Below are positions 5,805-61,685 of a stretch of 64,000 bases of DNA, piece after piece. Location of the stretch: NCBI GenBank assembly GCA_963666055.2, contig CAXWPH010000012.1:256001-320000 (forward strand), given 5' to 3'. The notes under the pieces are model-generated. The model searched no databases, had not been told where the DNA came from, and saw only the letters and a list, made by a program, of their open reading frames with translations. A program made the position numbers and the translations under genes. The DNA is from Acidobacteriota bacterium. GTDB taxonomy: Bacteria > Acidobacteriota > UBA890 > WLXD01. Position 1 is the stretch's first letter, and the number at the start of each line of letters is the position of its first letter.

Positions 5805-7130
5805 CTAACAGGCCGACGGCAGCGTCTCGAGGGCTCCCAGCACCTGCGCGGTGATCTCGACTACCTGATCCAACTCGCTGTCGGAGATGACGAACGGCGG
5901 GCCGAACAGGATCACGTCGCCGTCGGTGCCGTTGACCATGCCGGTTCCCGGATAGACCAGTAGGCCCTCCGCCTTGCACGCCGAGAGCACGCGCTCGGTA
6001 ACCTGAGAAGATCGTGGAAAGGGCTCGCGGGTGTCGCGATCAGCGACCAGCTCAACCCCTACGAGCAGGCCACGGCCGCGCACTTCACCCACGTACGGGT
6101 TGTTCGACAATTGCTCCACGAGCAGGGATTTGAGGCGTTCTCCCTTGTCGCGCGACTGCGCCACCAGGTCGCCAACCAGCAGACGCTCGATCACCGCCAC
6201 GCCGACCGCGGCGCCGACGGCATGGTGTGAGTAGGTGAAGCCGTGCACAAAACCACCTTCATACAGTGCGGCCGCCACGCGCCCGCTGGCGACCGTCAGC
6301 CCGAGTGGCCAGTAGCCCGACGAGCACCCCTTGCCGCTGGCGATGAGATCAGGCTGCACATCCCAGTGGTCGACACCGAACCACGTCCCCGTTCTACCGA
6401 AGCCGGTCATTACCTCGTCGGCAATGAGCAGGACGCCGTGGCGCCGGCAGACCTCGGCAGTCGCCAGCCAGTAGTCATCCGGCGGCACGCTGGCACCGAG
6501 CGTCGCCCCACCGATCGGTTCGGCGATGAAGGCCGCAACCGTATCGGCGCCCTCCTCGGTAATGGCCCGGTCGAGCGCCGCCGCGTGCGCCGCGCCGCAG
6601 GCACGCGGATGCGTCGGCATCGGGCAGCGATACTCGTAAACCGCCGGTACGTGGATGGCGCTGCCGAGCCAAGGTAGGTACGGGGCGCGCAGCGGCGCGC
6701 GACCGCTGACGGCGAGCGCCGCGCGCGTGTTGCCGTGGTACGAGCCCCAGCGACTGATGATCTTGTGCCGACCATCTTGTCCATTGGCCAGGTGGAAGGC
6801 CCGCGCCATCTTGAAGGCTGTTTCTATCGCCTCCGAGCCCCCCGACACGGGGTAGATCGACGGCGACTCCATCGGCAACAACGGGGCCAGCTTCTCCCCC
6901 AGCTCCTCGAGAGCGGCGGTGGTGAACTCGGTGCCGTGTACGTACGACACGCGTTCGGCCTGCTCCAGCATGGCGCGCCGGATCTCGGGCACGCCATGGC
7001 CGACGTTCACCACCACGGCGCCGCCGGCGGCGTCGAGATAGCGGTTGCCGTGCTCGTCAGTGATCCAAACACCCTCGGCAGCGACCGCCCTCGGCATGCC
7101 CGCGGGCGCCCGTCGGAAGATGTGGCTCAT
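5805..7130 (-). CDS. Class III PLP aminotransferase, YodT-like
   Basis: YLDAAGGAVVVNVGHG, GSEAIETA, SRWGSYHGNT, LIADEVMTGFGRTG, PLP lysine in SGKG, HGFTY. Confidence 0.92.
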   Translation of the reverse strand: MSHIFRRAPAGMPRAVAAEGVWITDEHGNRYLDAAGGAVVVNVGHGVPEIRRAMLEQAERVSYVHGTEFTTAALEELGEKLAPLLPMESPSIYPVSGGSEAIETAFKMARAFHLANGQDGRHKIISRWGSYHGNTRAALAVSGRAPLRAPYLPWLGSAIHVPAVYEYRCPMPTHPRACGAAHAAALDRAITEEGADTVAAFIAEPIGGATLGASVPPDDYWLATAEVCRRHGVLLIADEVMTGFGRTGTWFGVDHWDVQPDLIASGKGCSSGYWPLGLTVASGRVAAALYEGGFVHGFTYSHHAVGAAVGVAVIERLLVGDLVAQSRDKGERLKSLLVEQLSNNPYVGEVRGRGLLVGVELVADRDTREPFPRSSQVTERVLSACKAEGLLVYPGTGMVNGTDGDVILFGPPFVISDSELDQVVEITAQVLGALETLPSAC

Positions 7131-7909
7131 CGCGTATAGATCCCGTCGGTATCGAGCTCCTCGCGGATCAGCCGTAACTCCTCGGCGGTGGGCGCAGGAG
7201 CTTCGCGCAGATCGTCAGCTACCTTCATCTCCCAGCCGGTCTTCTCGCGCACCTCGTCCAGCGACACGCCAGGGTGCAGCGAGGTGAGCTCCATCTCGCC
7301 GGTCTGCGCGTCGAAGCCATACTCGCCGAGATCGGTGATGACCACCTGCGGCCCGCTCCCGAGCCAGCCACGGGCGCGCTCGACCTCTGGATCGGGATTG
7401 TGTCCCGGCGAGGTCTGGAAGCTCAGCTGCTGCACGAACGAACGCCGTCTCTGCGGCATGATGATGAAGACGCGCCGGGCGTTGATGGCGATCTCACAAG
7501 CGCCTCCCGAGCCGGGCAGACGCACCTTGGGCTCCTCGTAGTCGCCAATGACGGTGCTGTTGAGGTTGCCGTAACGGTCGATTTGGGCCCCCTGCAGGAA
7601 GCCCACATCGATGAGGCCGGCCTGCAGGTAGAAGGCGAAGAGCTCGAACATGCTGGTCGCCGCCGTCGCCCCGGTGACCAGAGTCGGATCCCCGATCGAC
7701 AGCGGCAGCCGCGCCGGCGCGGCGCCGAACACGCCGGCCTCGTACACCATCTGGATATCGGGCGACACCGTACGCTTGGCGAGGTTCACCGCGATGTTCG
7801 GCATACCCACGCCCACAAAGCAAATCCTCTCTCCCTCGAGAGCGTGCGCCGAGCGCACGATCATCATCTCCTTGCGCGAGAAACCGAGCTCCGGCTGCGC
7901 GACGCTCAC
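7127..7909 (-). CDS. CoA-transferase subunit B (glutaconate / 3-oxoadipate CatJ-like)
   Basis: FVGVGMP, catalytic Glu in VYEAG, AQIDRYGNLN, RLPGSGGA; 4-bp overlaps with neighbours. Confidence 0.9.
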   Translation of the reverse strand: MSVAQPELGFSRKEMMIVRSAHALEGERICFVGVGMPNIAVNLAKRTVSPDIQMVYEAGVFGAAPARLPLSIGDPTLVTGATAATSMFELFAFYLQAGLIDVGFLQGAQIDRYGNLNSTVIGDYEEPKVRLPGSGGACEIAINARRVFIIMPQRRRSFVQQLSFQTSPGHNPDPEVERARGWLGSGPQVVITDLGEYGFDAQTGEMELTSLHPGVSLDEVREKTGWEMKVADDLREAPAPTAEELRLIREELDTDGIYTR

Positions 7910-8823
7910 GCGTACTCTCCGTAGTCAACCTCACCGGAAAGTGCGGGGCCTGTCGGGCGTAGGCGATCCCAGTAGGCGGCACCGAACTTCTCCACGTAGT
8001 CGGCATGGCACGACAGGTCGTAGACCCACTCCCGGAGCCAGGCGTCGAGGCTATCGGCGTGGCGCGCAATCGTGTCCCACTTCACGTAGAAATCATTGTC
8101 GCGATCGTAGTGACCTTGAACATAGGAGGGGTGACAGCCGAAAGGCTCGACCACGACCGCGTCTACCTTGATGCCAGGGATCACCGTGCGGTTGGGATCG
8201 CGACGTACCGTTTCCTCGCCAACCAGCTCCTCGACCACGAGGATGACGCGGTCAGCGCCAAATGCTGCCTCCTTCTGGCAACCGAGCAGGCCCCAGATCT
8301 GTGCGTTGCCCTCAGCGTCGGCACGCTGCGCGTGGATGATCGCGACGTCTGCGTTCAGCGGCGGCACGGCAGCGATCCGACCGCTGCCAAAGGGGTCGTC
8401 GAGCCAGCGGATCTGATCGTTCACCGACGGAATGTCGGACTCCTCGTACGAGCGCAGCGGCATGAACGGCAGGCGCGAGGCCCCTGCCATGTAGCGGCAC
8501 ACCATGCCGAAGTGGCTGTACTCCTCGATCTCGAGGGGCGCCGGGTCAGCCCTCTCTACACGACGGCGAATAGCATGCAGCGACCCGACGCCAGGGTTGC
8601 CTAACCACGAGAAAATCAGTTTGCTGGCCACACCGGCGGCGATCATCTGGTCGTAGGTCACATCGGGGGTCATGCGCGCCAGGGTCAGATCGCGCTTGCG
8701 CTGTCGGATGATCTCGTGCCCGGCCGCAAAACAGATGAGGTGGGTGAACCCCTCGATCGCCACCGTGTCGCTATCGCGCACGAGATCGCGCACGGCGTCC
8801 TGCATCGAAACCACCTTGCCCAC
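7906..8823 (-). CDS. CoA-transferase subunit A (glutaconate / 3-oxoadipate CatI-like)
   Basis: EGFTHLICFAAGHEIIRQ, EEYSH, DVAIIHAQRAD, GCHPSY, YDRDNDFY. Confidence 0.9.
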   Translation of the reverse strand: MGKVVSMQDAVRDLVRDSDTVAIEGFTHLICFAAGHEIIRQRKRDLTLARMTPDVTYDQMIAAGVASKLIFSWLGNPGVGSLHAIRRRVERADPAPLEIEEYSHFGMVCRYMAGASRLPFMPLRSYEESDIPSVNDQIRWLDDPFGSGRIAAVPPLNADVAIIHAQRADAEGNAQIWGLLGCQKEAAFGADRVILVVEELVGEETVRRDPNRTVIPGIKVDAVVVEPFGCHPSYVQGHYDRDNDFYVKWDTIARHADSLDAWLREWVYDLSCHADYVEKFGAAYWDRLRPTGPALSGEVDYGEYA

Positions 8824-8831
8824 TGTCGCCC

Positions 8832-10172
8832 CTACCCGCCGACCGCGCCGAGGACCTCTTCGAACACCTCGAGACCCCGGTCGGCCTGCTGTCGCGTGAA
8901 GACCAGCGGTGGCGTGATGCGGATCACGTTGTCGCCGCAGCCCAGCATCAGCAAGCCGCGCTTGAAGGCCTCTTGTTCGATCCGGCCCATCACGTCATGG
9001 CTCGGGAACTCGACGCCGATCATCAGGCCCAGCCCGCGCAGATCGCGAATCACGTCGTGCTTCGACTGCAGCTGGCGCAGCCCGTCCATCAGATAGGCCC
9101 CGACCTCGGCGGCGTTCTGCTTGAGGCCGTTCTCGATCAGATCGATGCTGGCAAGCGCCGCCGCGCACGGCGTCGGCGATCCCCCGTAGGTGGAGCCGTG
9201 CGCACCGAACTCCCAGGACATCAGATCCTCGCGCGCGATCATCGCGCCCAGCGGCATGCCGCTGGCGATGCCCTTGCCCGACAGGACGATGTCGGGTTCG
9301 ACGCCGAAGTGCTGGATGGCCCAGGTCTTACCGGTACGGCCCATGCCCGACTGCACCTCGTCGGCCACCAGCAGGATGCCGTGCTGGTCGCACAGCCGCC
9401 GCAGCTCGGTGAGGAATTCCTGCGGCGGGAAGATGTAGCCGCCTTCGCCCTGCACCGGCTCGACGAAGATCGCCGCCACCTCGTCGGCTGCCAGGACGTG
9501 CTTGAAAAGCACCTTCTCGATGTAATCGATACTCGCGAGTCCATCATCGCCGGCGGCCAGGTCCAATCCCCAACCGTAGCCGTCGCCGTACGGGGCGTGG
9601 TAGACGCCGGGAAGCAGCGGTCCGAAGCGGCGGTGATACTTCGCTTTCGAGGCCGTCAACGACACGCTGCCGTACGAGCGACCGTGGAAGGCACCGTAGA
9701 ACGCAATCACGTTGTGCCTGCCGGTGGCGTAGCGTGCCAGCTTCAGGGCCGCCTCCACGGCCTCGGTACCCGAGTTGGTGAGGAAGGTGCGCGCCCGGCC
9801 CGAAAACGGCGAGATCTCGTCGAGCCGCTCGCAAACTTCAGCGTAGATTGGCAGGTAGAAGTCCGACGCCGAGTAGTGCAGCAACTCGGCAGCCTGCTTC
9901 TGGATCGCCTCGACCACTGCCGGGTGCGAATGGCCCGTGGCATTGACCGCGATGCCGGCGTTTAGGTCGAGAAACAGGTTGCCGTCGACGTCCTCGACCA
10001 CCGAGCCGCTCCCCCGTCGGGGGGCAAACGGATACGCTCGGGGCAGCGACGGCGACGTCACCCGCTGGTCACGCTCGATGATCGCCTGCGCCTTGGGGCC
10101 GGGCGGCGAGACGACGATCTGCGGAGCCGCTACTCCGGCGAGATCTGCGATGGAAAGCTCAGTGCTGCTCAT
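8832..10172 (-). CDS. Class III omega-aminotransferase (GABA / ornithine / lysine type)
   Basis: Start moved to ATG 10172 (ATGA overlap with the ALDH stop). PPGPKA, NSGTEAVE, AFHGRSYG, EPVQGEGGY, DEVQSGMGRTG, SGKGIASG. Confidence 0.92.
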   Translation of the reverse strand: MSSTELSIADLAGVAAPQIVVSPPGPKAQAIIERDQRVTSPSLPRAYPFAPRRGSGSVVEDVDGNLFLDLNAGIAVNATGHSHPAVVEAIQKQAAELLHYSASDFYLPIYAEVCERLDEISPFSGRARTFLTNSGTEAVEAALKLARYATGRHNVIAFYGAFHGRSYGSVSLTASKAKYHRRFGPLLPGVYHAPYGDGYGWGLDLAAGDDGLASIDYIEKVLFKHVLAADEVAAIFVEPVQGEGGYIFPPQEFLTELRRLCDQHGILLVADEVQSGMGRTGKTWAIQHFGVEPDIVLSGKGIASGMPLGAMIAREDLMSWEFGAHGSTYGGSPTPCAAALASIDLIENGLKQNAAEVGAYLMDGLRQLQSKHDVIRDLRGLGLMIGVEFPSHDVMGRIEQEAFKRGLLMLGCGDNVIRITPPLVFTRQQADRGLEVFEEVLGAVGG

Positions 10173-11728
10173 CCGATCACCGTCCTGGATTGTTCGCGCA
10201 TGTACTGGAGCACGTAGTAGGGGCCACCCGCCGCCTTGCCCATCGTCCCGGAACCCTTCCAGCCGCCGAACGGCTGGGCGCCCGGCCACGCGCCGGTGGT
10301 GGCTCCGGAGGAACGATTGATGTAAATGACGCCGGCCTCGATCTCGTTGCAGAAGCGGTCGATCTCGGCCTGATCTTCGCTGAACAAACCCGCCGTGAGC
10401 CCGTATTCGGTGTCGTTGGCAAGCCCGATCGCCTCGTCGAGCGAGTCCACCGCATCGACCGCCACGAACGGCACGAACAGCTCGCGCTTCCACAGCCAAG
10501 AGTCCCGCGGCACGTGTACCACCGTCGGCTGCACGTAGGTGCCGCGCGCAAAATCACCGTCAGTAATTACCTCCCCGCCGGCGATCACCTCTCCCGTCCG
10601 TCTGGCCTCATCGGCAGCCTCCTCAAACGTGTCGACAGCCGCCTGGTTGATCACCGGTCCAAGAAACACACCCTGTTCAAGCGGGTTGCCGACCACCAGG
10701 GCCTCGGTCTTCTCCTTGAGCTTGGCGACGAACTCGTCGTACAGCTCACGCTCGACGTACACCCGCGAGTTCGCCGAGCACTTCTGGCCCTGAAGGCCGA
10801 ATGCACTGCGCCATACGCCGTCGGTAGCCTTGTCGAGATCGGCATGCTTGGTGACGATCGTCGGGTTCTTGCCGCCCATCTCGCAGATAGCCGGCTTGGG
10901 GTAGTCCCTCGCAAACTCCCTGTAGATCTTCATCCCGACTTCATAGGAGCCAGTAAACGTCAGGCCCTTTACATCCGGGTGGGTGGCGATGCCATCGCCG
11001 ACCACCTCACCTGACCCTGACAGCAACTGGAACGCGCCAGGTGGCATGCCGGCCTCGCGATAGGCCTCGTAGAGCATGTGTCCGGTCGCCGCCCCCTGCG
11101 AGGCGGGCTTGAACACCACCGTATTCCCGGCTGCCAGCGCCGCCGACGACGGCCCAGCCGCCAGCGCCATCGGAAAGTTAAAGGGGCTGATGACCCCCCA
11201 GACGCCATAGGGGCGCATGATGTCGTAGTAGTCGCCGGCCTCGCCTAGCGGCTGCATCGGCACCCTGAAGCCCTCGGCTTGGATCATCGCGTGGGTATTC
11301 CAGCGAATGAGGTCGGCCGACTCCTGCACGTCGCCGACCGCCTCGAGTCGGCTCTTCCCCACTTCCATCGCCATCAGCGCCGACATCATGTAGCGCTGTT
11401 CCTCGATGATCTTGGCGGCCCGGTCGAGGATCTCGGCGCGCTTCTGGTATCCCAGTGCGTCCCAGGCCAGCGCATAGTCCTTGGCGGCGGCGATGGCATC
11501 GCTTACGTCCTGCGGGGTCGCCCTGGCGAACTCGCCGAGCACGATGTCGGAGTCGATCGGGGACACCTCGGTGTGCCAGCCATCACCCTCGCGAGCTTCG
11601 CCGTTCACGTAGAACGGATGTCGCTGGCCGAGCCACGCCTTGGCGTCCTCGATGCCGCGCTCGTAGTCGGCGTGCATGTTCGGGTCGGCTGCGAGCGTCG
11701 CGTAGGTAACGCGGAATCCTTCGGCCAT
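10169..11728 (-). CDS. Aldehyde dehydrogenase, P5C-dehydrogenase (RocA/PruA)-like
   Basis: SPFNFP, FTGS, CEMGGKN (Glu), GQKCSA (Cys), TTGAWPGAQPFGGWKGSG. Confidence 0.92.
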   Translation of the reverse strand: MAEGFRVTYATLAADPNMHADYERGIEDAKAWLGQRHPFYVNGEAREGDGWHTEVSPIDSDIVLGEFARATPQDVSDAIAAAKDYALAWDALGYQKRAEILDRAAKIIEEQRYMMSALMAMEVGKSRLEAVGDVQESADLIRWNTHAMIQAEGFRVPMQPLGEAGDYYDIMRPYGVWGVISPFNFPMALAAGPSSAALAAGNTVVFKPASQGAATGHMLYEAYREAGMPPGAFQLLSGSGEVVGDGIATHPDVKGLTFTGSYEVGMKIYREFARDYPKPAICEMGGKNPTIVTKHADLDKATDGVWRSAFGLQGQKCSANSRVYVERELYDEFVAKLKEKTEALVVGNPLEQGVFLGPVINQAAVDTFEEAADEARRTGEVIAGGEVITDGDFARGTYVQPTVVHVPRDSWLWKRELFVPFVAVDAVDSLDEAIGLANDTEYGLTAGLFSEDQAEIDRFCNEIEAGVIYINRSSGATTGAWPGAQPFGGWKGSGTMGKAAGGPYYVLQYMREQSRTVIG

Positions 11729-12041
11729 CGAGGTCGCCTCTTGGTGGATCGCTATGGCGGATCGTCTCGTCCCGTCGCGTGATCGATCTCAGGCGGACAT
11801 CGTATTCCTGTCGCCAAGTCGCCGCATCCCGCTCGGCGCGGAGAATCGGTCAGCGGTTGCCCAAGCTCGCGGTGCGATGGGATGATAGATAAGTGGCCTC
11901 CACCTTTGCCGACGTCGTGACGGCGGCACGTGGACTCATATGGCGGCTAGGCTCATATCTCGACCCGCTCGCCGGTGACCTGCATGTGGTTCAACCTGAA
12001 CGTCCTTCACCAGCCCGACGTCGACGCCTGATGACGTGACC

Positions 12042-12061
12042 GCGCCCCCCTAGGGGGGCGC
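12042..12061. promoter_or_regulatory. Perfect 20-bp palindrome in the divergent intergenic region (possible operator or hairpin)
   Basis: GCGCCCCCC-TA-GGGGGGCGC, ~45 bp upstream of the kamA start; function is inferred. Confidence 0.35.
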
Positions 12062-12105
12062 CTGTTAGTCCCATCGGCCCCCAAGGTGAAGCAAGGATCC
12101 CAAGC

Positions 12106-13506
12106 ATGTCGTCCAGCACCCTGAAGACCACTGCAGTAGAAGGCGGCGACACCGCGCATCTCAAGGAACCCGTCGATGCGGCGGCGCTCGGCCATCGCGA
12201 TCTGGTTCGCGGCGAGTTCTGGCGCGATGTCCCGGCATACAGCGACGTCTCGGAGCCCCAGTTCCTCGACCACCTATGGCAGGCAAGGAACTCGATCACG
12301 ACCCCGAAGAAACTGCTGGCGGCGCTCAGCGGGCTGGTGAGCGACACGTTCATCGAGGACGTACGCAACGGCTTCGAGCGCTCGCCAATGAGCGTGCGGG
12401 TTTCTCCCTACCTTCTCAGCCTGATCAACTGGGAGGACCCTTACGAGGACCCGCTGCGCATCCAGTTCATCCCGGTCGGATCGCGGTTGTTGCCCGACCA
12501 TCCGAAGCTCGAGCTGGACTCGCTGCACGAGCAGGCCGATGCGCCGGTGCCCGGCCTGACGCACCGATACCCCGACAAGGCACTGTTTCTCGCTCTCGAT
12601 ACCTGTCCGGTGTACTGCCGATTCTGCACCCGAAGCTACGCGGTGGGCATCGACACCGAGGAAGTCGAGAAGGTCCAGCTCAAAGTCAACGCCGAGCGCT
12701 GGGATCTGATGTTCGAGTACGTGCGATCGCGACCTGAGCTCGAGGACATCGTCATCTCCGGTGGCGATGCCTACAACCTGCGTGCCGAGCAGATCCGCAC
12801 CATCGGCATAACGCTGCTGGAGATCGATCATACCCGCCGCATGCGATTCGCCACCAAAGGGCCGGCGGTGATGCCGCAGAAGCTGCTCACCGACCACGCC
12901 TGGGTCGCGGCGCTCACCGATGTGCACGAACGAGGGCGACAGCTAGGTAAGGAGGTGGTACTCCACACGCATTTCAACACCGGGCGCGAGATCACCGGCA
13001 TCACCCACGATGCGATGAACGTGCTGTTCGAGCGCGGCATGACGTCGCGCAACCAGAGCGTCATGCAGCGCGGGGTGAACGACAAGGTCACCACCATGCA
13101 GCGGCTGGTCAAACGGCTCAGCTACATCAACGTGCACCCCTACTACGTGTACATGCACGATCTGGTGAAGGGCGTCGAGGACCTACGCACCACCGTCGTC
13201 ACCGGCATCGCCGTGGAGAAGCACGTGCGTGGCGTGACGGCGGGATTCAACACCCCCACCGTGGTCGTCGACGCGCCCGGCGGCGGCGGTAAACGCGACA
13301 TCCACTCGTACGAGCACTACGACCCGGACACCGGCATCAGCGTCTACACGGCGCCGTCGGTCAAGCATGGGTACTTCCTGTATTTCGACCCCATCCCCAT
13401 GCTCCCCGTCGAGAGCCAGCGGCGCTGGTCTGACCCCGTCCAGCAGCGTCGGATGATCCGCGACGCCCTCGACGCGGCGAGCGCCAACCGGGGACAACAT
13501 GCGTAG
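12106..13506 (+). CDS. kamA: KamA-family radical SAM/PLP aminomutase (lysine 2,3-aminomutase-like)
   Basis: HRYPDK, CPVYCRFCTR (CxxxCxxC), SGGD, HTHFN, NQSV, YMHD, VVDAPGGGGK (PLP Lys). Confidence 0.9.
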   Translation: MSSSTLKTTAVEGGDTAHLKEPVDAAALGHRDLVRGEFWRDVPAYSDVSEPQFLDHLWQARNSITTPKKLLAALSGLVSDTFIEDVRNGFERSPMSVRVSPYLLSLINWEDPYEDPLRIQFIPVGSRLLPDHPKLELDSLHEQADAPVPGLTHRYPDKALFLALDTCPVYCRFCTRSYAVGIDTEEVEKVQLKVNAERWDLMFEYVRSRPELEDIVISGGDAYNLRAEQIRTIGITLLEIDHTRRMRFATKGPAVMPQKLLTDHAWVAALTDVHERGRQLGKEVVLHTHFNTGREITGITHDAMNVLFERGMTSRNQSVMQRGVNDKVTTMQRLVKRLSYINVHPYYVYMHDLVKGVEDLRTTVVTGIAVEKHVRGVTAGFNTPTVVVDAPGGGGKRDIHSYEHYDPDTGISVYTAPSVKHGYFLYFDPIPMLPVESQRRWSDPVQQRRMIRDALDAASANRGQHA

Positions 13507-14620
13507 GTCGGCGGACCAGCGCGGCCGCCTGCTGATGGCTGGTCTGTTGTCTTGTCTGGCGCTCGCCTGTGGTCCTACCCCCGTGGTCGAGACGCCGGCG
13601 TTGGAACCGTCGGCGCAGGTCGATGCCTTGTTCGCCCACTACACCGAGGGCATTCAGCCGGGCGCTGCGGTCATGGTCATCCGCGACGCAGAGGTAGTGC
13701 ACAGCGCAGGCTATGGCTATGCGGAGATCGGGCACAGGGTGCACATCGGCACCGACTCGACGTTCCGACTCGGTTCCTTCTCCAAGCAATTCACCGCCAT
13801 GGCGATCATGCTGCTGGCCGAGAGCGGTGACTTGGACTACGACGATCCGATCGCCCGTTACCTGCCCGAGCTGGCCCGCTACGGCGAGAACATCACGATT
13901 CGACACCTCCTGCACCACCAAGGCGGCCTGCCGGGGTACTACAGCGACATCGACACTTCGGCTGGGATGCCCTCCAACGCAGACGCGCTAGCTCAGCTAG
14001 CGAGCAAGGGCGAGCCGGTGTTCCCGCCGGGGGAGCGCTACGAGTACAGCAACCCCGGATACGACATGCTGGCCGTGGTGGTCGAGGCAGCTTCGGGGAT
14101 GAGTTTCGCCGACTTCATGCGTGAGCGTATCTTCGCTCCGCTGGGAATGGACGACTCCCTGATTCACGATCACACTGGCCCGCACATCGCCCGTCGCGTC
14201 GTCGGTTACGACCCGGACGGCGATGGGTACGTGGAGAACGACCAGCACCCACTCAACGGCATCGTCGGCTCGGGCAGCATGTTCTCCACCCTCGAGGACC
14301 TCTACAAATGGGACCAGGCACTCTACACAGGGGTGCTGGTGAGCAGCGCAACCCTGCGGGAAGCGTTCACGCCCGCGAAACTCAACAACGGAGAGGGCAC
14401 CGGCTACGGCTTCGGCTTCACGATCGGCGAGTACCGTGGCCACCAGCGCATCGCGCACGGTGGCAGCTGGGTGGGCTTCCGGACGCACATCGCACGACAT
14501 CCGGAGATCGGGCTGACGGTGATCCTGCTTTCGAACCGCGGCGACTTCGACAGCAGCGACTACGTCGACCCGGTGATCGATGCCTATCTGGGCGCTTACT
14601 CGACTCCGTCGGCCGAGTAG
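13499..14620 (+). CDS. Serine hydrolase, beta-lactamase class C/AmpC family; probable lipoprotein
   Basis: Lipobox LALAC, SxxK in GSFSKQF, YSN, HGGSWVGF. Confidence 0.9.
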   Translation: MRRSADQRGRLLMAGLLSCLALACGPTPVVETPALEPSAQVDALFAHYTEGIQPGAAVMVIRDAEVVHSAGYGYAEIGHRVHIGTDSTFRLGSFSKQFTAMAIMLLAESGDLDYDDPIARYLPELARYGENITIRHLLHHQGGLPGYYSDIDTSAGMPSNADALAQLASKGEPVFPPGERYEYSNPGYDMLAVVVEAASGMSFADFMRERIFAPLGMDDSLIHDHTGPHIARRVVGYDPDGDGYVENDQHPLNGIVGSGSMFSTLEDLYKWDQALYTGVLVSSATLREAFTPAKLNNGEGTGYGFGFTIGEYRGHQRIAHGGSWVGFRTHIARHPEIGLTVILLSNRGDFDSSDYVDPVIDAYLGAYSTPSAE

Positions 14621-37092: not shown

Positions 37093-38091
37093 CTACTCCT
37101 TTGCGCGCTCGCGCGACAGCACCGTCCCCGCACCGATGCCGTGCTTCTCGAGCACCTTCATCAGGTCCACCAGCACTTCGTCCCGTTTGGCCTCCCATTC
37201 CGCCACCGACCGACCGCCGGCCTGTTCCTCGCAACCCTCGATAAGCCGACGACTCATCTCGTCGGACCATTCCGGGAACCTCAGCTCCGTCCACGGAAGC
37301 TCCTCGGCCGGATCGAAGTGATCGAGGAAATGCCGCATTCCGCCCTCGCCGCCGGCGAGATGGTAGGTCAGGAACGGGCCCATGAACGCGTATCGTAGCC
37401 CGGCGGAAAATACGAGCGAATCATCGATCTCCCTGGTGCTGGCGATATCTTTGTCGATCAGGTGCAACGCCTCACGCCAGAGCGCCTCTTGCAGTCGGTC
37501 GCAGAGGTAGCCGTCAATCTCGCGCTTCAGCCGCAGCACATACATGCCGAGGGACTCGTAGAAAGTGCCGGCGAATCGCATCGCATCTTCCGACGTCTGC
37601 TCGCCGGGAACGACCTCGACGAGCGGTAGGAGATAGACCGGGTTGAACGGGTGGCCAATGAGCAACCGTTCGGGGTGCACGCATCGAGACTGCAGGCGCG
37701 TCGGCAAGAAACCGGAAGACGAGGAGGCGATAACAACGTCAGGGCGCGCCACAGCGTCGATCTTCGCGAACAGAGCGATCTTGAGATCTTCCCGCTCCGG
37801 GGCGGCTTCCTGTATCCAATCGGCGCGCGCCGCCATGTATTCGACGCTCTGTGTGAAGCTGAGGGTGCCGCGCTCGACGTGCTCGCGGTCCATGAGCTTC
37901 AGCATCGACGGCCAAGCGTTCTCGATGCTGGCGCGAAAGCGTTCCTCTGTGGCCGCTGCCGGGTCGTACGCCACCACGTCCAAGCCACGCGCTAGAGCGC
38001 GAGCGGCCCATCCGGCTCCGATCAGCCCGGCACCGGCAATACCGATAGTCCGGACCCTCTTCACTTCGGCCCGCCGAGTAGCAAGCCTCAC
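37093..38091 (-). CDS. L-carnitine dehydrogenase-like (3-hydroxyacyl-CoA dehydrogenase family)
   Basis: [65 protein letters not shown]. Confidence 0.88.
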
Positions 38092-38984
38092 CCGCCGCGC
38101 TGCTCGAGACCCAGGATATTTCGCGCCTCATCGGGCGAAGCGACCTTTGCACCGATCAGCTCGACGATCTGGATCGCACGCTCGGTGAGCGAGCCGTTCG
38201 AGGCGTACACCCCTTTCTCCAGATAGAGGTTGTCCTCCAGACCGACGCGTACGTGCCCCCCGAGCACAACCGCCTGGGCCACCATCGGCATCTCCCAGCG
38301 GCCGATTCCGAAGCCCGCCCAGACGCAGCCGTCGGGCAGCTGGCTCACCATATAGGTCATCGTCTGGGTGTTGACCGGGGCTCCCCATGGGATGCCCAGA
38401 CAAAGCTGGAACATCGGCGGATCCTCGACTAATCCTTCGGCACATAGCTGCTTCGCGAACCACAGGTTGCCGGAATCGAAGATCTCCATTTCCGGCTTCA
38501 CCCCGTACGAGCGGATCAGCTTGGCCTGCTCGCGCAGCTGAATAGGTGTTTGGATGACCACCGAGTGTGTGTCCCCGAAGTTGAGCGAGCCACAATCGAG
38601 CGTGCAGATCTCCGGGCGCAGCTCCGCCACATGCAGCAGCCGTTCAACCGGCCCGACCAGGTCGGTGAGCTCCTCGTCGAAATCCCGTGGGCGCTCCCCG
38701 TCGCCGATCATCAGGTCGCCGCCCATGCCGGCAGTGAGGTTGATGATCACGTCGGTATTCTGGGATCGAATGTGTTCCACGACCTGCCGATACAGGCCCA
38801 CGTCGCGCACGCCTCTGCGGGTCTCCACATCGCGCACGTGGCAATGAACGATAGCGGCCCCGGCATCGGCCGCCTGCAGCGCTGCATCGCCGATCTGCTG
38901 CGCAGTAACCGGGATCGCCGGGTGCTTGTCGACCGTGTCGCCGGACCCGGTGACGGCACACGTCACGATGACTTTCGAGTTCAT
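38088..38984 (-). CDS. Beta-keto acid cleavage enzyme (BKACE/DUF849; CdhC-like)
   Basis: [40 protein letters not shown]. Confidence 0.9.
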
Positions 38985-39217
38985 GATCGCTCCCGGACCT
39001 AGCCTGCTGGCTGTCTCGTCGGTAATCTTCGCACCGAACCTAGCGTATCCCGAACAACCGTGGTGACGTGCCGCGCTTTCGACCGTGAAGGGTCGGCAAG
39101 TTGGCGCTCCTCTTTCAACCGGAGGGCTTGACCTGCTTGGAGAGACCCATGGCCATCGCGTCAGGCGCATCGTAAAGTTGCTGCGAGCTATTCTTGCCTA
39201 GGGAAACCGGAACACTC

Positions 39218-61308: not shown

Positions 61309-61685
61309 GACTGACCCGCGAGGCGAGTAAGCGGGATTCTGTTCACCCGGCCGAAGCCAGGCTGGGAACCATGAATCTGGGACGCCGGTCTCCCGACGCC
61401 TCGTGCAGCCTACCCGGAAGCCGGGCCGGGCCAGCCCATCGCTTCCCTATTTGGCCTTGCTCCACGCGGGGTTTACCTAGCTGCCGGGGTCACCCCCGAC
61501 ACTGGTGGGCTCTTACCCCACCGTTTCACCCTTACCGACGGCCCGAGGGCCGCAGGCGGTCTGTTCTCTGTGGCACTTTCCCGGGGTTGCCCCCGCTGGG
61601 GGTTACCCAGCGCGCCGCCCTGTGGAGTCCCGACTTTCCTCTGCCGATGATCTCGACAGCGGTTCCCCTGCCTCGCGGGTCAATC
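61309..61685 (-). ncRNA. rnpB: RNase P RNA (type A)
   Basis: Minus strand: GAGGAAAGUCGGGACUC, GGGUGAAACGGUGGGGUAAGAGCCCACC, GGUAAACCCC, GAGCAAG, ACAGAAUCCCGCUUA. P1 helix pairs 61309-61324 with 61670-61685. Confidence 0.95.

What the first reader, a model, noticed from the sequence alone, without database searches (positions are those of the whole stretch)
5805..13506. Candidate new lysine catabolic route: beta-lysine -> beta-aminoadipate -> beta-ketoadipate
Seen: a tightly coupled five-gene operon (P5CDH-like ALDH, omega-aminotransferase, CoA-transferase A and B, YodT-like aminotransferase) shares a divergent intergenic region with a KamA aminomutase. That enzyme keeps the substrate residues of clostridial lysine 2,3-aminomutase: Arg in CTR, Asp in YMHD, Asp and PLP-Lys in VVDAPGGGGK. 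Established: B. subtilis clusters kamA with yodT (aminotransferase), yodSR (CoA-transferase), an acetyltransferase and a deacetylase; fermenters instead use the B12 5,6-aminomutase. None of those helper genes is in this cluster, which has an omega-aminotransferase and an ALDH in their place. Inference: omega-transamination of beta-lysine gives 3-amino-6-oxohexanoate, which cyclises to 1-pyrroline-5-acetate, a one-carbon homologue of P5C that would explain the P5CDH-like ALDH. Oxidation gives beta-aminoadipate, the YodT-like enzyme gives 3-oxoadipate, and the Gct/CatIJ-type transferase gives 3-oxoadipyl-CoA. Every gene gets a role. Caveat: no thiolase is in the window.
Basis: partly seen in the sequence, partly recalled or inferred. 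Interest (0 to 1): 0.85.

Follow-up and report, generated by a model that had tools for sequence, protein, structure and literature searches.

The report
New B12-free lysine breakdown pathway
Five genes that many uncultured bacteria keep together, and that sit beside a lysine-rearranging enzyme gene in three separate lineages, likely break lysine down without vitamin B12 by a route I could not find described, predicted to run through beta-lysine, beta-aminoadipate and beta-ketoadipate to succinyl-CoA and acetyl-CoA.

Summary
Observation confirmed. The five-gene operon is complete in 52 of 80 related loci (39 of 42 with enough flank). kamA lay in none of those 80, but genome searches found it physically linked in three independent lineages: the window's genus, two Actinomycetota (Lrp|kamA-ALDH-AT1-CoAA-CoAB-AT2, one strand) and three Gemmatimonadota (kamA-AT1). 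In sister Actinomycetota the same Lrp-kamA slot is followed by kdd-kamDE instead. 48 of 50 operon genomes have a KamA, 0 of 49 have kamD. The CoA-transferase groups with pca-cluster 3-oxoadipate transferases; thiolases adjoin some loci. This genome has separate ornithine/proline enzymes. Best reading, about 0.65 and wholly inferred: lysine to beta-lysine, 1-pyrroline-5-acetate, beta-aminoadipate, 3-oxoadipate(-CoA). Against: no assay; some module genomes lack KamA; no PcaF-class thiolase here. New: a conserved 15-codon leader peptide precedes kamA. The scan had not reported this operon, but had reported a sibling 2-aminoadipate-aminomutase operon on other DNA.

The parts
12106..13506 (+). kamA, radical-SAM/PLP aminomutase of the clade whose named members are myxobacterial; predicted lysine 2,3-aminomutase (step 1)
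   Evidence: TIGR00238 220 > 199.2, TIGR03820 250.7 < 525.4; R176/D352/D389/K396 align to 2A5H R134/D293/D330/K337; clade members adjoin kdd in 10 of 80 loci; names
8832..10172 (-). AT1, class III omega-aminotransferase of the PH1423/TK2101 family; predicted beta-lysine epsilon-aminotransferase (step 2)
   Evidence: PRK05769 585.7 > 552; best PDB hit 7VNO = PH1423; D104 in 92 of 92 orthologs; directly behind kamA in L389, L390, L393
10169..11728 (-). P5CDH-like ALDH of its own subfamily; predicted 1-pyrroline-5-acetate / beta-aminoadipate-semialdehyde dehydrogenase (step 3)
   Evidence: Best PDB hit 3RJL P5CDH; xQKCSA catalytic loop in 85 of 85 orthologs and a 3-residue insertion before TGA in 80 of 80 that cover it, 0 of 7 other GQKCSA-bearing ALDHs
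5805..7130 (-). AT2, YodT-like class III aminotransferase; predicted beta-aminoadipate transaminase (step 4)
   Evidence: Best PRK07483/PRK06917, below cut-offs; best PDB hit 3I4J, which PMC6522883 lists as YodT's closest structure; stays with CoAA/B when ALDH and AT1 are elsewhere
7906..8823 (-). CoA-transferase subunit A, Gct/CatIJ type; predicted 3-oxoadipate:succinyl-CoA transferase (step 5)
   Evidence: 50-55% identical to transferases in pcaF/pcaHG clusters, 53% to the S. meliloti pSym gene followed by a PcaF-like thiolase; one 99* clade with them
7127..7909 (-). CoA-transferase subunit B
   Evidence: PF01144; best PDB hit 1POI_B; 44-50% to pca-cluster B chains
11729..12105 (.). Shared divergent intergenic region; no Rfam match, no sigma-70 consensus
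11984..12031 (+). Conserved 15-codon leader ORF (motif MWF..N[VI]LHxPDV) ending 74 nt before kamA; predicted translational attenuator
   Evidence: Same motif only directly upstream of this KamA clade: 4 genomes of the genus (this one included) and 9 of 67 metagenome loci with 200 nt or more upstream; 7 of 9 variable columns at codon position 3; no other hit in 3.98 Mb of loci
12005..12091 (+). Predicted pairing of the leader's Leu-His codons (12005-12011) with 12085-12091, next to kamA's purine-rich ribosome-binding site, enclosing a variable GC hairpin
   Evidence: RNAalifold on 6 close relatives; 7 pairs, one with a two-sided change in one sequence; weak

Best explanation
The five genes form a conserved operon, linked to kamA in three lineages, that likely degrades the beta-lysine made by KamA without B12 or acetylation, predicted to proceed through 1-pyrroline-5-acetate, beta-aminoadipate and 3-oxoadipate to 3-oxoadipyl-CoA. 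Steps, all inferred: (1) KamA turns L-lysine into beta-lysine. (2) AT1 moves the epsilon-amino group to 2-oxoglutarate; beta-lysine has the same amine-to-amine spacing as ornithine, so the aldehyde would cyclise to the five-membered 1-pyrroline-5-acetate, the homologue of P5C. (3) The ALDH oxidises it to beta-aminoadipate. (4) AT2 transaminates the beta-amino group to give 3-oxoadipate. (5) CoAA/B takes CoA from succinyl-CoA. (6) A thiolase encoded elsewhere (best candidate G000:C12:157294-158463) gives succinyl-CoA + acetyl-CoA. Shown here: conservation, linkage, cassette exchange with kdd-kamDE, residue conservation, tree position. Not shown: any activity.
For: Linkage on three separate starred branches of the KamA tree: window genus (3 of 3 long loci; L170, L171); G581 and G501, six genes on one strand behind a divergent Lrp; G648, G632, G636, kamA directly before AT1. 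The G581/G501 KamAs sit in a 99* clade with 7 kdd-linked KamAs; 9 of 13 fetched Actinomycetota with that KamA type and no operon have kamA next to kdd, with kamD/kamE confirmed in L302 and L310. Co-occurrence: 48 of 50 chosen operon genomes have a KamA; 24 of 27 versus 28 of 174 in a 201-genome Actinomycetota sample; 14 of 16 versus 45 of 85 in Gemmatimonadota. kamD: 0 of 49 operon genomes; 5 of 351 Acidobacteriota, none with the transferase. R/D/D/K kept in all three KamA types wherever the alignment covers them. AT1 belongs with PH1423, listed as an Orn/Lys omega-aminotransferase with GABA and 5-aminovalerate as poorer substrates (PMC9986279 table). G000 has its own RocD-like aminotransferase, PRODH and a true P5CDH (TIGR01236 759 > 613.6) and no kdd, kamDE or pcaHG hit. 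Thiolases adjoin L150, L158, L160 and L355, the last passing pcaF (639.5 > 597).
Against: No enzyme assay. kamA is in 0 of 80 nearest operon loci and the operon adjoins 2 of 80 nearest kamA loci, both of the window's own lineage. Four Acidobacteriota 93-100% complete (G217, G102, G277, G252) hold the transferase, three of them with AT2 or a variant cluster, but no KamA at E 1e-5. In most Gemmatimonadota the KamA sits with ATP-grasp ligases and a GNAT and may be biosynthetic; its base rate there is 53%. No PcaF-class thiolase in G000 (best 382 < 597), and none at E 1e-100 in G040 or G033; 5 of 5 such genomes have only general thiolases. In many Actinomycetota the operon lies between proC (7 loci with PRODH) and acuC, and in G040, G033, G581 and G127 no other P5CDH scored at E 1e-70, so the ALDH may also or mainly serve proline. 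Kin are not independent, so the co-occurrence counts overstate.
Confidence: 0.65

Rival explanations
1. Still beta-lysine catabolism, but beta-amino group first, as in the acetylated Pseudomonas route (recalled) and as the B. subtilis yod cluster suggests: AT2 makes a 3-oxo-6-amino(or acetamido)hexanoate, CoAA/B and a thiolase cleave it to acetyl-CoA + 4-aminobutyryl-CoA, and AT1 + ALDH act as GABA transaminase and succinate-semialdehyde dehydrogenase.
For: AT2 is YodT-like. An HDAC/AcuC-family deacetylase lies in 34 of 80 loci; an amidohydrolase follows AT2 in L280; an M20 deacylase adjoins AT1 in G181. AT1 also scores on GABA-transaminase models (371 < 506).
Against: No AblB/YodP acetyltransferase over cut-off in 0 of 5 operon genomes tested. 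acuC neighbours PRODH/proC and an unrelated ALDH in genomes without the operon, and the amidohydrolase also belongs to the kdd-kamDE cassette. AT1 keeps an invariant Asp at the PH1423 Asp93 position (its role in binding a second amine is recalled). The ALDH has the P5CDH loop and scores 278 on SSADH versus 400 on P5CDH. The transferase groups with dicarboxylate (3-oxoadipate) enzymes.
Confidence: 0.12
2. AT1 and the ALDH take L-lysine itself to 2-aminoadipate, and an aminomutase then shifts the amino group to give beta-aminoadipate, which AT2 and CoAA/B finish.
For: PH1423 and TK2101 accept L-lysine. G000 holds a second, distant KamA-like gene (C2:286683-288164) that lacks the D330-position Asp and shares words with the scan's predicted 2-aminoadipate aminomutases. 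G181 has that gene, a saccharopine/lysine-dehydrogenase-like gene and the module, but no lysine-type KamA.
Against: That second family is in only 3 of 79 operon genomes. The KamAs physically linked to the operon keep both Asp residues and cluster with kdd-linked lysine enzymes. It may be a side entry in a few genomes.
Confidence: 0.08
3. The operon has nothing to do with KamA: AT1 + ALDH serve ornithine/proline (or cadaverine/5-aminovalerate), and AT2 + CoAA/B serve glutarate or another acid.
For: kamA is usually unlinked. The operon is often next to proC/PRODH and its ALDH is the best P5CDH-like gene in four genomes tested. The module exists without KamA in four genomes. GctAB is the best PDB hit.
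Against: Three independent linkages and the cassette exchange with kdd-kamDE. G000 and G648 have a separate true P5CDH. The transferase is 50-55% identical to pca-cluster enzymes, against 31-40% to the other Gct-family relatives found.
Confidence: 0.08
4. Same route to beta-aminoadipate, but CoA is attached first: CoAA/B makes beta-aminoadipyl-CoA and AT2 transaminates the thioester to 3-oxoadipyl-CoA, as the acyl-CoA beta-transaminase of PMC3149608 (title and start of abstract seen) does for its substrate.
For: AT2 and CoAA/B are the most tightly kept trio; gene order cannot tell the two sequences apart.
Against: The transferase's nearest context-defined relatives sit in pca clusters, where the substrate is free 3-oxoadipate (substrate from established knowledge).
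Confidence: 0.07

Closest known systems
Lysine fermentation route KamA-KamDE-Kdd-Kce-Kal (Clostridium, Fusobacterium)
   Same: Starts with a lysine 2,3-aminomutase; sister genomes carry kamA-kdd-kamDE at the locus where G581/G501 carry this operon.
   Different: No B12 5,6-aminomutase or Kdd in G000 and no kamD in 0 of 49 operon genomes; the epsilon-amine would be removed, not moved; predicted end products succinyl-CoA + acetyl-CoA.
N6-acetyl-beta-lysine route (Pseudomonas, Barker laboratory; recalled) and B. subtilis yodTSRQP-kamA
   Same: KamA plus a YodT-like class III aminotransferase plus a two-chain CoA-transferase; YodT and AT2 share the closest PDB entry 3I4J.
   Different: No AblB/YodP-type acetyltransferase found; an omega-aminotransferase and a P5CDH-like ALDH instead; transferase of the Gct/CatIJ type. 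PMC6522883 calls YodT uncharacterised (passages).
Ornithine catabolism: PH1423/TK2101 ornithine omega-aminotransferase plus P5C dehydrogenase
   Same: AT1 passes PRK05769 and has 7VNO as best structure hit; the ALDH keeps the QKCSA loop and TGA motif.
   Different: The ALDH fails all P5CDH cut-offs and carries a clade-specific 3-residue insertion; AT1 orthologs have Arg/Lys at position 45 in 84 of 84 covered where PH1423 has Asn; G000 has separate ornithine/proline genes.
Lower beta-ketoadipate pathway (CatIJ/PcaIJ of the Gct type plus PcaF)
   Same: Transferase in one 99* clade with pca-cluster enzymes; PcaF-like thiolases beside L150 and L355.
   Different: Fed by amino acid enzymes; no pcaHG hit in G000; no PcaF-class thiolase in G000.
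Predicted 2-aminoadipate 2,3-aminomutase operon
   Same: Would converge on beta-aminoadipate and 3-oxoadipyl-CoA.
   Different: Different aminomutase branch and, by those notes, a GSAM-like transaminase, with no ALDH or omega-aminotransferase; no look-alike of this stretch in the scan's index.

Membership tests
Lysine 2,3-aminomutase (KamA/AblA) | CxxxCxxC, substrate Arg, two Asp and PLP-Lys at the 2A5H positions | tested here: met
   the roles of these residues are recalled (Lepore 2005 not held)
Lysine 2,3-aminomutase (KamA/AblA) | TIGR03820 equivalog cut-off and the clostridial C-terminal domain | tested here: not met
   250.7 < 525.4; LAM_C 25.9 < 26.7; alignment to 2A5H ends at residue 340 of 416
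Lysine 2,3-aminomutase (KamA/AblA) | Clade members linked to lysine-degradation genes | tested here: met
   kdd (NF052381 247.7 > 200) in 10 of 80 loci
Lysine 2,3-aminomutase (KamA/AblA) | Activity on L-lysine | not testable with these tools
   needs an assay
Lysine fermentation pathway | KamDE and Kdd in the genome | tested here: not met
   none in G000; kamD 0 of 49 (the same model finds 5 of 351)
N6-acetyl-beta-lysine route / yod cluster | AblB/YodP-type acetyltransferase | tested here: not met
   TIGR03827 over cut-off in 0 of 5 genomes, 2 of 14 controls over; an unrelated acetyltransferase is not excluded
N6-acetyl-beta-lysine route / yod cluster | YodT ortholog | tested here: inconclusive
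   PRK06917 410 < 535, PRK07483 450 < 485; no B. subtilis sequence was in hand for a tree
PRK05769 Orn/Lys omega-aminotransferases | HMM cut-off and Asp at the PH1423 Asp93 position | tested here: met
   585.7 > 552; D104 in 92 of 92
P5C dehydrogenase (ALDH4) | HMM cut-offs TIGR01236/01237/01238 | tested here: not met
   252.7, 399.6, 269.8, all below
P5C dehydrogenase (ALDH4) | QKCSA catalytic loop and TGA motif | tested here: met
   85 of 85 and 80 of 80 covered, with a 3-residue insertion
3-oxoadipate CoA-transferase, Gct type (CatIJ) | Groups with pca-cluster transferases | tested here: met
   99* clade, quick IQ-TREE, LG+G4, 69 rows; branching inside it unresolved; GctAB itself not in the tree
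3-oxoadipate CoA-transferase, Gct type (CatIJ) | Activity on 3-oxoadipate with succinyl-CoA | not testable with these tools
   needs an assay
Lower beta-ketoadipate pathway | PcaF-class thiolase in the genome | tested here: not met
   G000 best 382 < 597; met beside the variant locus L355 (639.5)

The most novel reading that the evidence does not exclude
This is a third, widespread branch of beta-lysine catabolism that needs neither B12 nor acetylation, with two undescribed intermediates (1-pyrroline-5-acetate, beta-aminoadipate) and three undescribed activities (beta-lysine epsilon-aminotransferase, a homo-P5C dehydrogenase whose loop insertion fits a six-carbon substrate, beta-aminoadipate transaminase). 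It is exchangeable with kdd-kamDE behind one Lrp-kamA unit, is here gated by a new arrest-type leader peptide, and makes lysine a non-aromatic source of beta-ketoadipate; the Gct-type transferases of aromatic pca clusters may have been recruited from it.
Probability: 0.55. Interest if true: 0.85.

Novelty: new variant of a known kind. Interest (0 to 1): 0.77.

Why it matters
It would explain what many Actinomycetota, Gemmatimonadota, Acidobacteriota and Eremiobacterota do with beta-lysine when they have kamA but no B12 aminomutase. It would reassign a large set of proteins now labelled P5C dehydrogenase (5835 of 8000 scored candidates at E 1e-150, not all orthologs). It would show the beta-ketoadipate end steps fed from an amino acid. 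It also offers a carbon-conserving enzyme route from lysine to a six-carbon diacid: PMC7241714 (passages) names the lack of a deaminating enzyme as the main obstacle to making adipate from lysine. The six-gene operons of G581 and G501 make the whole idea testable in one construct.

Tried and rejected
Neighbourhood search from either side alone gave no outside link; only whole-genome position comparison did. acuC as pathway deacetylase: rejected, it neighbours PRODH/proC without the operon. The PcaF-like thiolase near L280/L281 as specific evidence: rejected, kdd-type sisters L303, L305, L308 have it too. The window ALDH as G000's only P5CDH (suggested): rejected. The serine hydrolase overlapping kamA (13499-14620) was seen only in the genus; not counted as a part. 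A cultured carrier on plasmids: none among the 5 regions opened of 128 + 11 hits. BKACE as cleaving enzyme: in 2 of 5 genomes tested, unlinked. Rfam and promoter scans gave nothing in the intergenic region. Expression: no RNA holder listed. Fisher tests were not used, since kin are not independent. Structure prediction was not run, because models cannot be measured here. Primary papers on LAM, glutamate aminomutase, ALDH4A1, TK2101, CatIJ and S. meliloti PcaIJ were not held; claims from them are marked recalled. One search timed out and was redone.


Full report
OBSERVATION. The five minus-strand genes overlap by 4 nt at three junctions and are 8 nt apart at the fourth; kamA is divergent. AT1 passes PRK05769; AT2, the ALDH and KamA fall below the equivalog cut-offs of their best families, and KamA passes the KamA subfamily model. 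Against 2A5H, window R176, D352, D389 and K396 match R134, D293, D330 and K337; their roles in binding lysine and PLP are recalled, as the paper was not held. The closest named transferase relative is an Acidobacteriota MAG.

THE OPERON IS A CONSERVED UNIT. A scan of GTDB contigs with CoA-transferase A confirmed 164 relatives and kept the best 80. All five genes are present in 52 of 80, and in 39 of 42 loci with enough flank (36 Actinomycetota, 15 Gemmatimonadota, 1 Vulcanimicrobiota = Eremiobacterota; one locus, L084, is from the unpublished G073). Full sets also occur in other Acidobacteriota (L159, L164, L165). Two orders occur: ALDH-AT1-CoAA-CoAB-AT2 and AT2-ALDH-AT1-CoAA-CoAB. The trio AT2-CoAA-CoAB also stands without ALDH and AT1; in 4 of 5 such genomes tested the ALDH ortholog (48-53%) is elsewhere. 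The window's transferase nests among Actinomycetota sequences (98*), while kamA's named relatives are myxobacterial, so the two halves likely arrived separately.

IS kamA LINKED? At first not: 0 of those 80 loci hold any KamA, and of the 80 best kamA loci (381 confirmed) only 2, at 88-89% identity, hold the operon. Whole-genome searches changed this. Of 50 operon genomes that I chose from the 80 for completeness, 48 have a KamA-family gene (47 of 49 without G073), of three types. In 201 sampled Actinomycetota, 27 have the transferase at 69% identity or more (AT1 or AT2 beside it in 26); 24 of 27 have KamA against 28 of 174 others (22 of 25 and 26 of 172 without the four unpublished genomes). 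In G581 and G501 the six genes lie on one strand, kamA first, behind a divergent Lrp (L280, L281). In 101 Gemmatimonadota, 14 of 16 with the ALDH ortholog have KamA against 45 of 85; in G648, G632 and G636 kamA lies directly before AT1, near CoAA/B, and in the first two also beside ALDH and AT2, with a GntR gene between in G648. In 351 Acidobacteriota, 10 of the 11 listed genomes with the actinobacterial KamA type have the transferase (39 low-scoring matches were not listed). The linked KamAs fall on three separate starred branches (41 rows chosen by me), and the window's is 34% identical to G581's.

CASSETTE EXCHANGE. Of 13 fetched Actinomycetota with this KamA type and no operon (13 of 16), 9 have kamA next to kdd; L302 and L310 continue amidohydrolase-kamD(-kamE). 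Several share flanking genes with L280/L281, and seven of these KamAs form a 99* clade with the two operon-linked ones. The window's own KamA clade adjoins kdd in 10 of 80 loci and Lrp in 13. kamD was found in 0 of 49 operon genomes (MAGs, so not proof of absence) and in 5 of 351 Acidobacteriota, none with the transferase. G000 has no kdd, kamD or kamE hit. Inference: the operon is an alternative consumer of beta-lysine.

ORDER OF STEPS (inferred). AT1's best structure is PH1423, listed with TK2101 as using L-ornithine and L-lysine, GABA and 5-aminovalerate less well (PMC9986279 table passages). Asp104, at the position of PH1423 Asp93, is kept in 92 of 92 orthologs; that Asp93 binds the substrate's second amine is recalled. 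Beta-lysine has ornithine's amine spacing, so epsilon-transamination gives a P5C homologue. The ALDH keeps the P5CDH loop (GQKCSA 71, NQKCSA 14 of 85) and has a 3-residue insertion before TGA in 80 of 80 covered, absent from 7 of 7 other GQKCSA ALDHs; that this loop sets chain length is recalled and was not found in the library. G000 has a RocD-like gene, PRODH and a true P5CDH elsewhere. The transferase is 50-55% identical to genes in pcaF/pcaHG clusters and shares a 99* clade with them, though branching within it is open. Thiolases adjoin L150 (560 < 597 on pcaF, 59-60% to pca-cluster PcaF), L158, L160 and L355 (639.5 > 597). G000's best candidate, about 100 kb from the operon, is 56% identical to those of L158/L160 but is not PcaF-class.

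AGAINST. No activity is shown. G217, G102, G277 and G252 lack any KamA at E 1e-5. Most Gemmatimonadota KamAs sit with ATP-grasp ligases and a GNAT. G040 and G033 have no PcaF-like thiolase, only general ones, three of six fetched being 55-57% identical to the L158 type. In many Actinomycetota the operon sits between proC and acuC and its ALDH is the only P5CDH-like hit in 4 of 5 genomes tested, so a second role in proline use is likely. G000 has a second distant KamA-like gene resembling the scan's predicted 2-aminoadipate mutases, present in 3 of 79 operon genomes: a possible side entry. No AblB/YodP was found in 5 genomes.

LEADER PEPTIDE. A 15-codon ORF at 11984-12031 is kept at peptide level upstream of this KamA clade only, and its Leu-His codons are predicted to pair beside kamA's ribosome-binding site (six close sequences). 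It has no lysine codon and no Rfam match. Attenuation by ribosome arrest is my inference.

LITERATURE. Five full-text searches gave no description of this route: beta-lysine + 3-oxoadipate + aminomutase, 0 papers; yodT set, 8; beta-aminoadipate synonyms, 6, none on catabolism by listing; acetamido-intermediates set, 80, 30 listed; beta-lysine/beta-ketoadipate/kamA set, 22. I saw listings only, except passages of PMC6522883, PMC9986279, PMC9081730, PMC6957869, PMC2821294, PMC7241714; a term search in PMC9854754 returned nothing. Subscription papers are not covered, and no supplements were read. The acetylated Pseudomonas route and the CatIJ assignments are recalled.

VERDICT. Real, conserved, and tied to lysine 2,3-aminomutase by three independent linkages and a cassette exchange (about 0.85 that KamA's product or a like beta-amino acid is what it consumes). 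Known enzyme types, undescribed substrates: a new variant of KamA-initiated lysine degradation. Interest 0.77.

Noticed in passing
window 11984-12031 (+); L170, L171, L174, L177, L178, L183, L184, L187, L203: Conserved leader peptide, motif MWF..N[VI]LHxPDV, found only upstream of this KamA clade; no lysine codon; predicted to pair beside the kamA ribosome-binding site.
   Followed up: partly
G000:C2:286683-288164 (L367:6684-8165): Second, stand-alone, very distant KamA-like gene lacking the D330-position Asp; 73% identical to one in G181; resembles the scan's predicted 2-aminoadipate aminomutases.
   Followed up: partly
L157:12753-13964; L160:13040-14185: Saccharopine-dehydrogenase-family (lysine 6-dehydrogenase-like, recalled) genes near AT2-CoAA-CoAB in two genomes without a lysine-type KamA; a possible other entry to the lower module.
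   Followed up: partly
L150:5119-6501; L355:7564-9168: A PRK06062-like aminotransferase stands in place of AT2 in two variant clusters that carry a PcaF-like thiolase.
   Followed up: partly
L301-L310 and L280, L293, L296: An amidohydrolase-3 gene travels with both the kdd-kamDE cassette and this operon; function unexplained.
   Followed up: no
L090-L102, L300, L391: AblA-like kamA with Ddl-like ATP-grasp ligases and a small GNAT in Gemmatimonadota; already noted by the scan on other DNA.
   Followed up: no
window 13499-14620 (+): Beta-lactamase-fold serine hydrolase with a lipoprotein-like N-terminus overlaps kamA's end by 8 nt; kept in 4 of 4 genus relatives, not seen in other loci.
   Followed up: partly
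window 37093-39170 (-): BKACE (PF05853) gene followed by a 3-hydroxyacyl-CoA-dehydrogenase-family gene, as in carnitine catabolism (recalled).
   Followed up: partly
window 61312-61678 (-): RNase P RNA class A (Rfam RF00010).
   Followed up: no
L031:9609-9995; L037:11706-12629: A small glyoxalase-like gene (18 loci) and a 300-aa gene with no Pfam hit (15 loci) are inserted inside the operon in many Actinomycetota.
   Followed up: no
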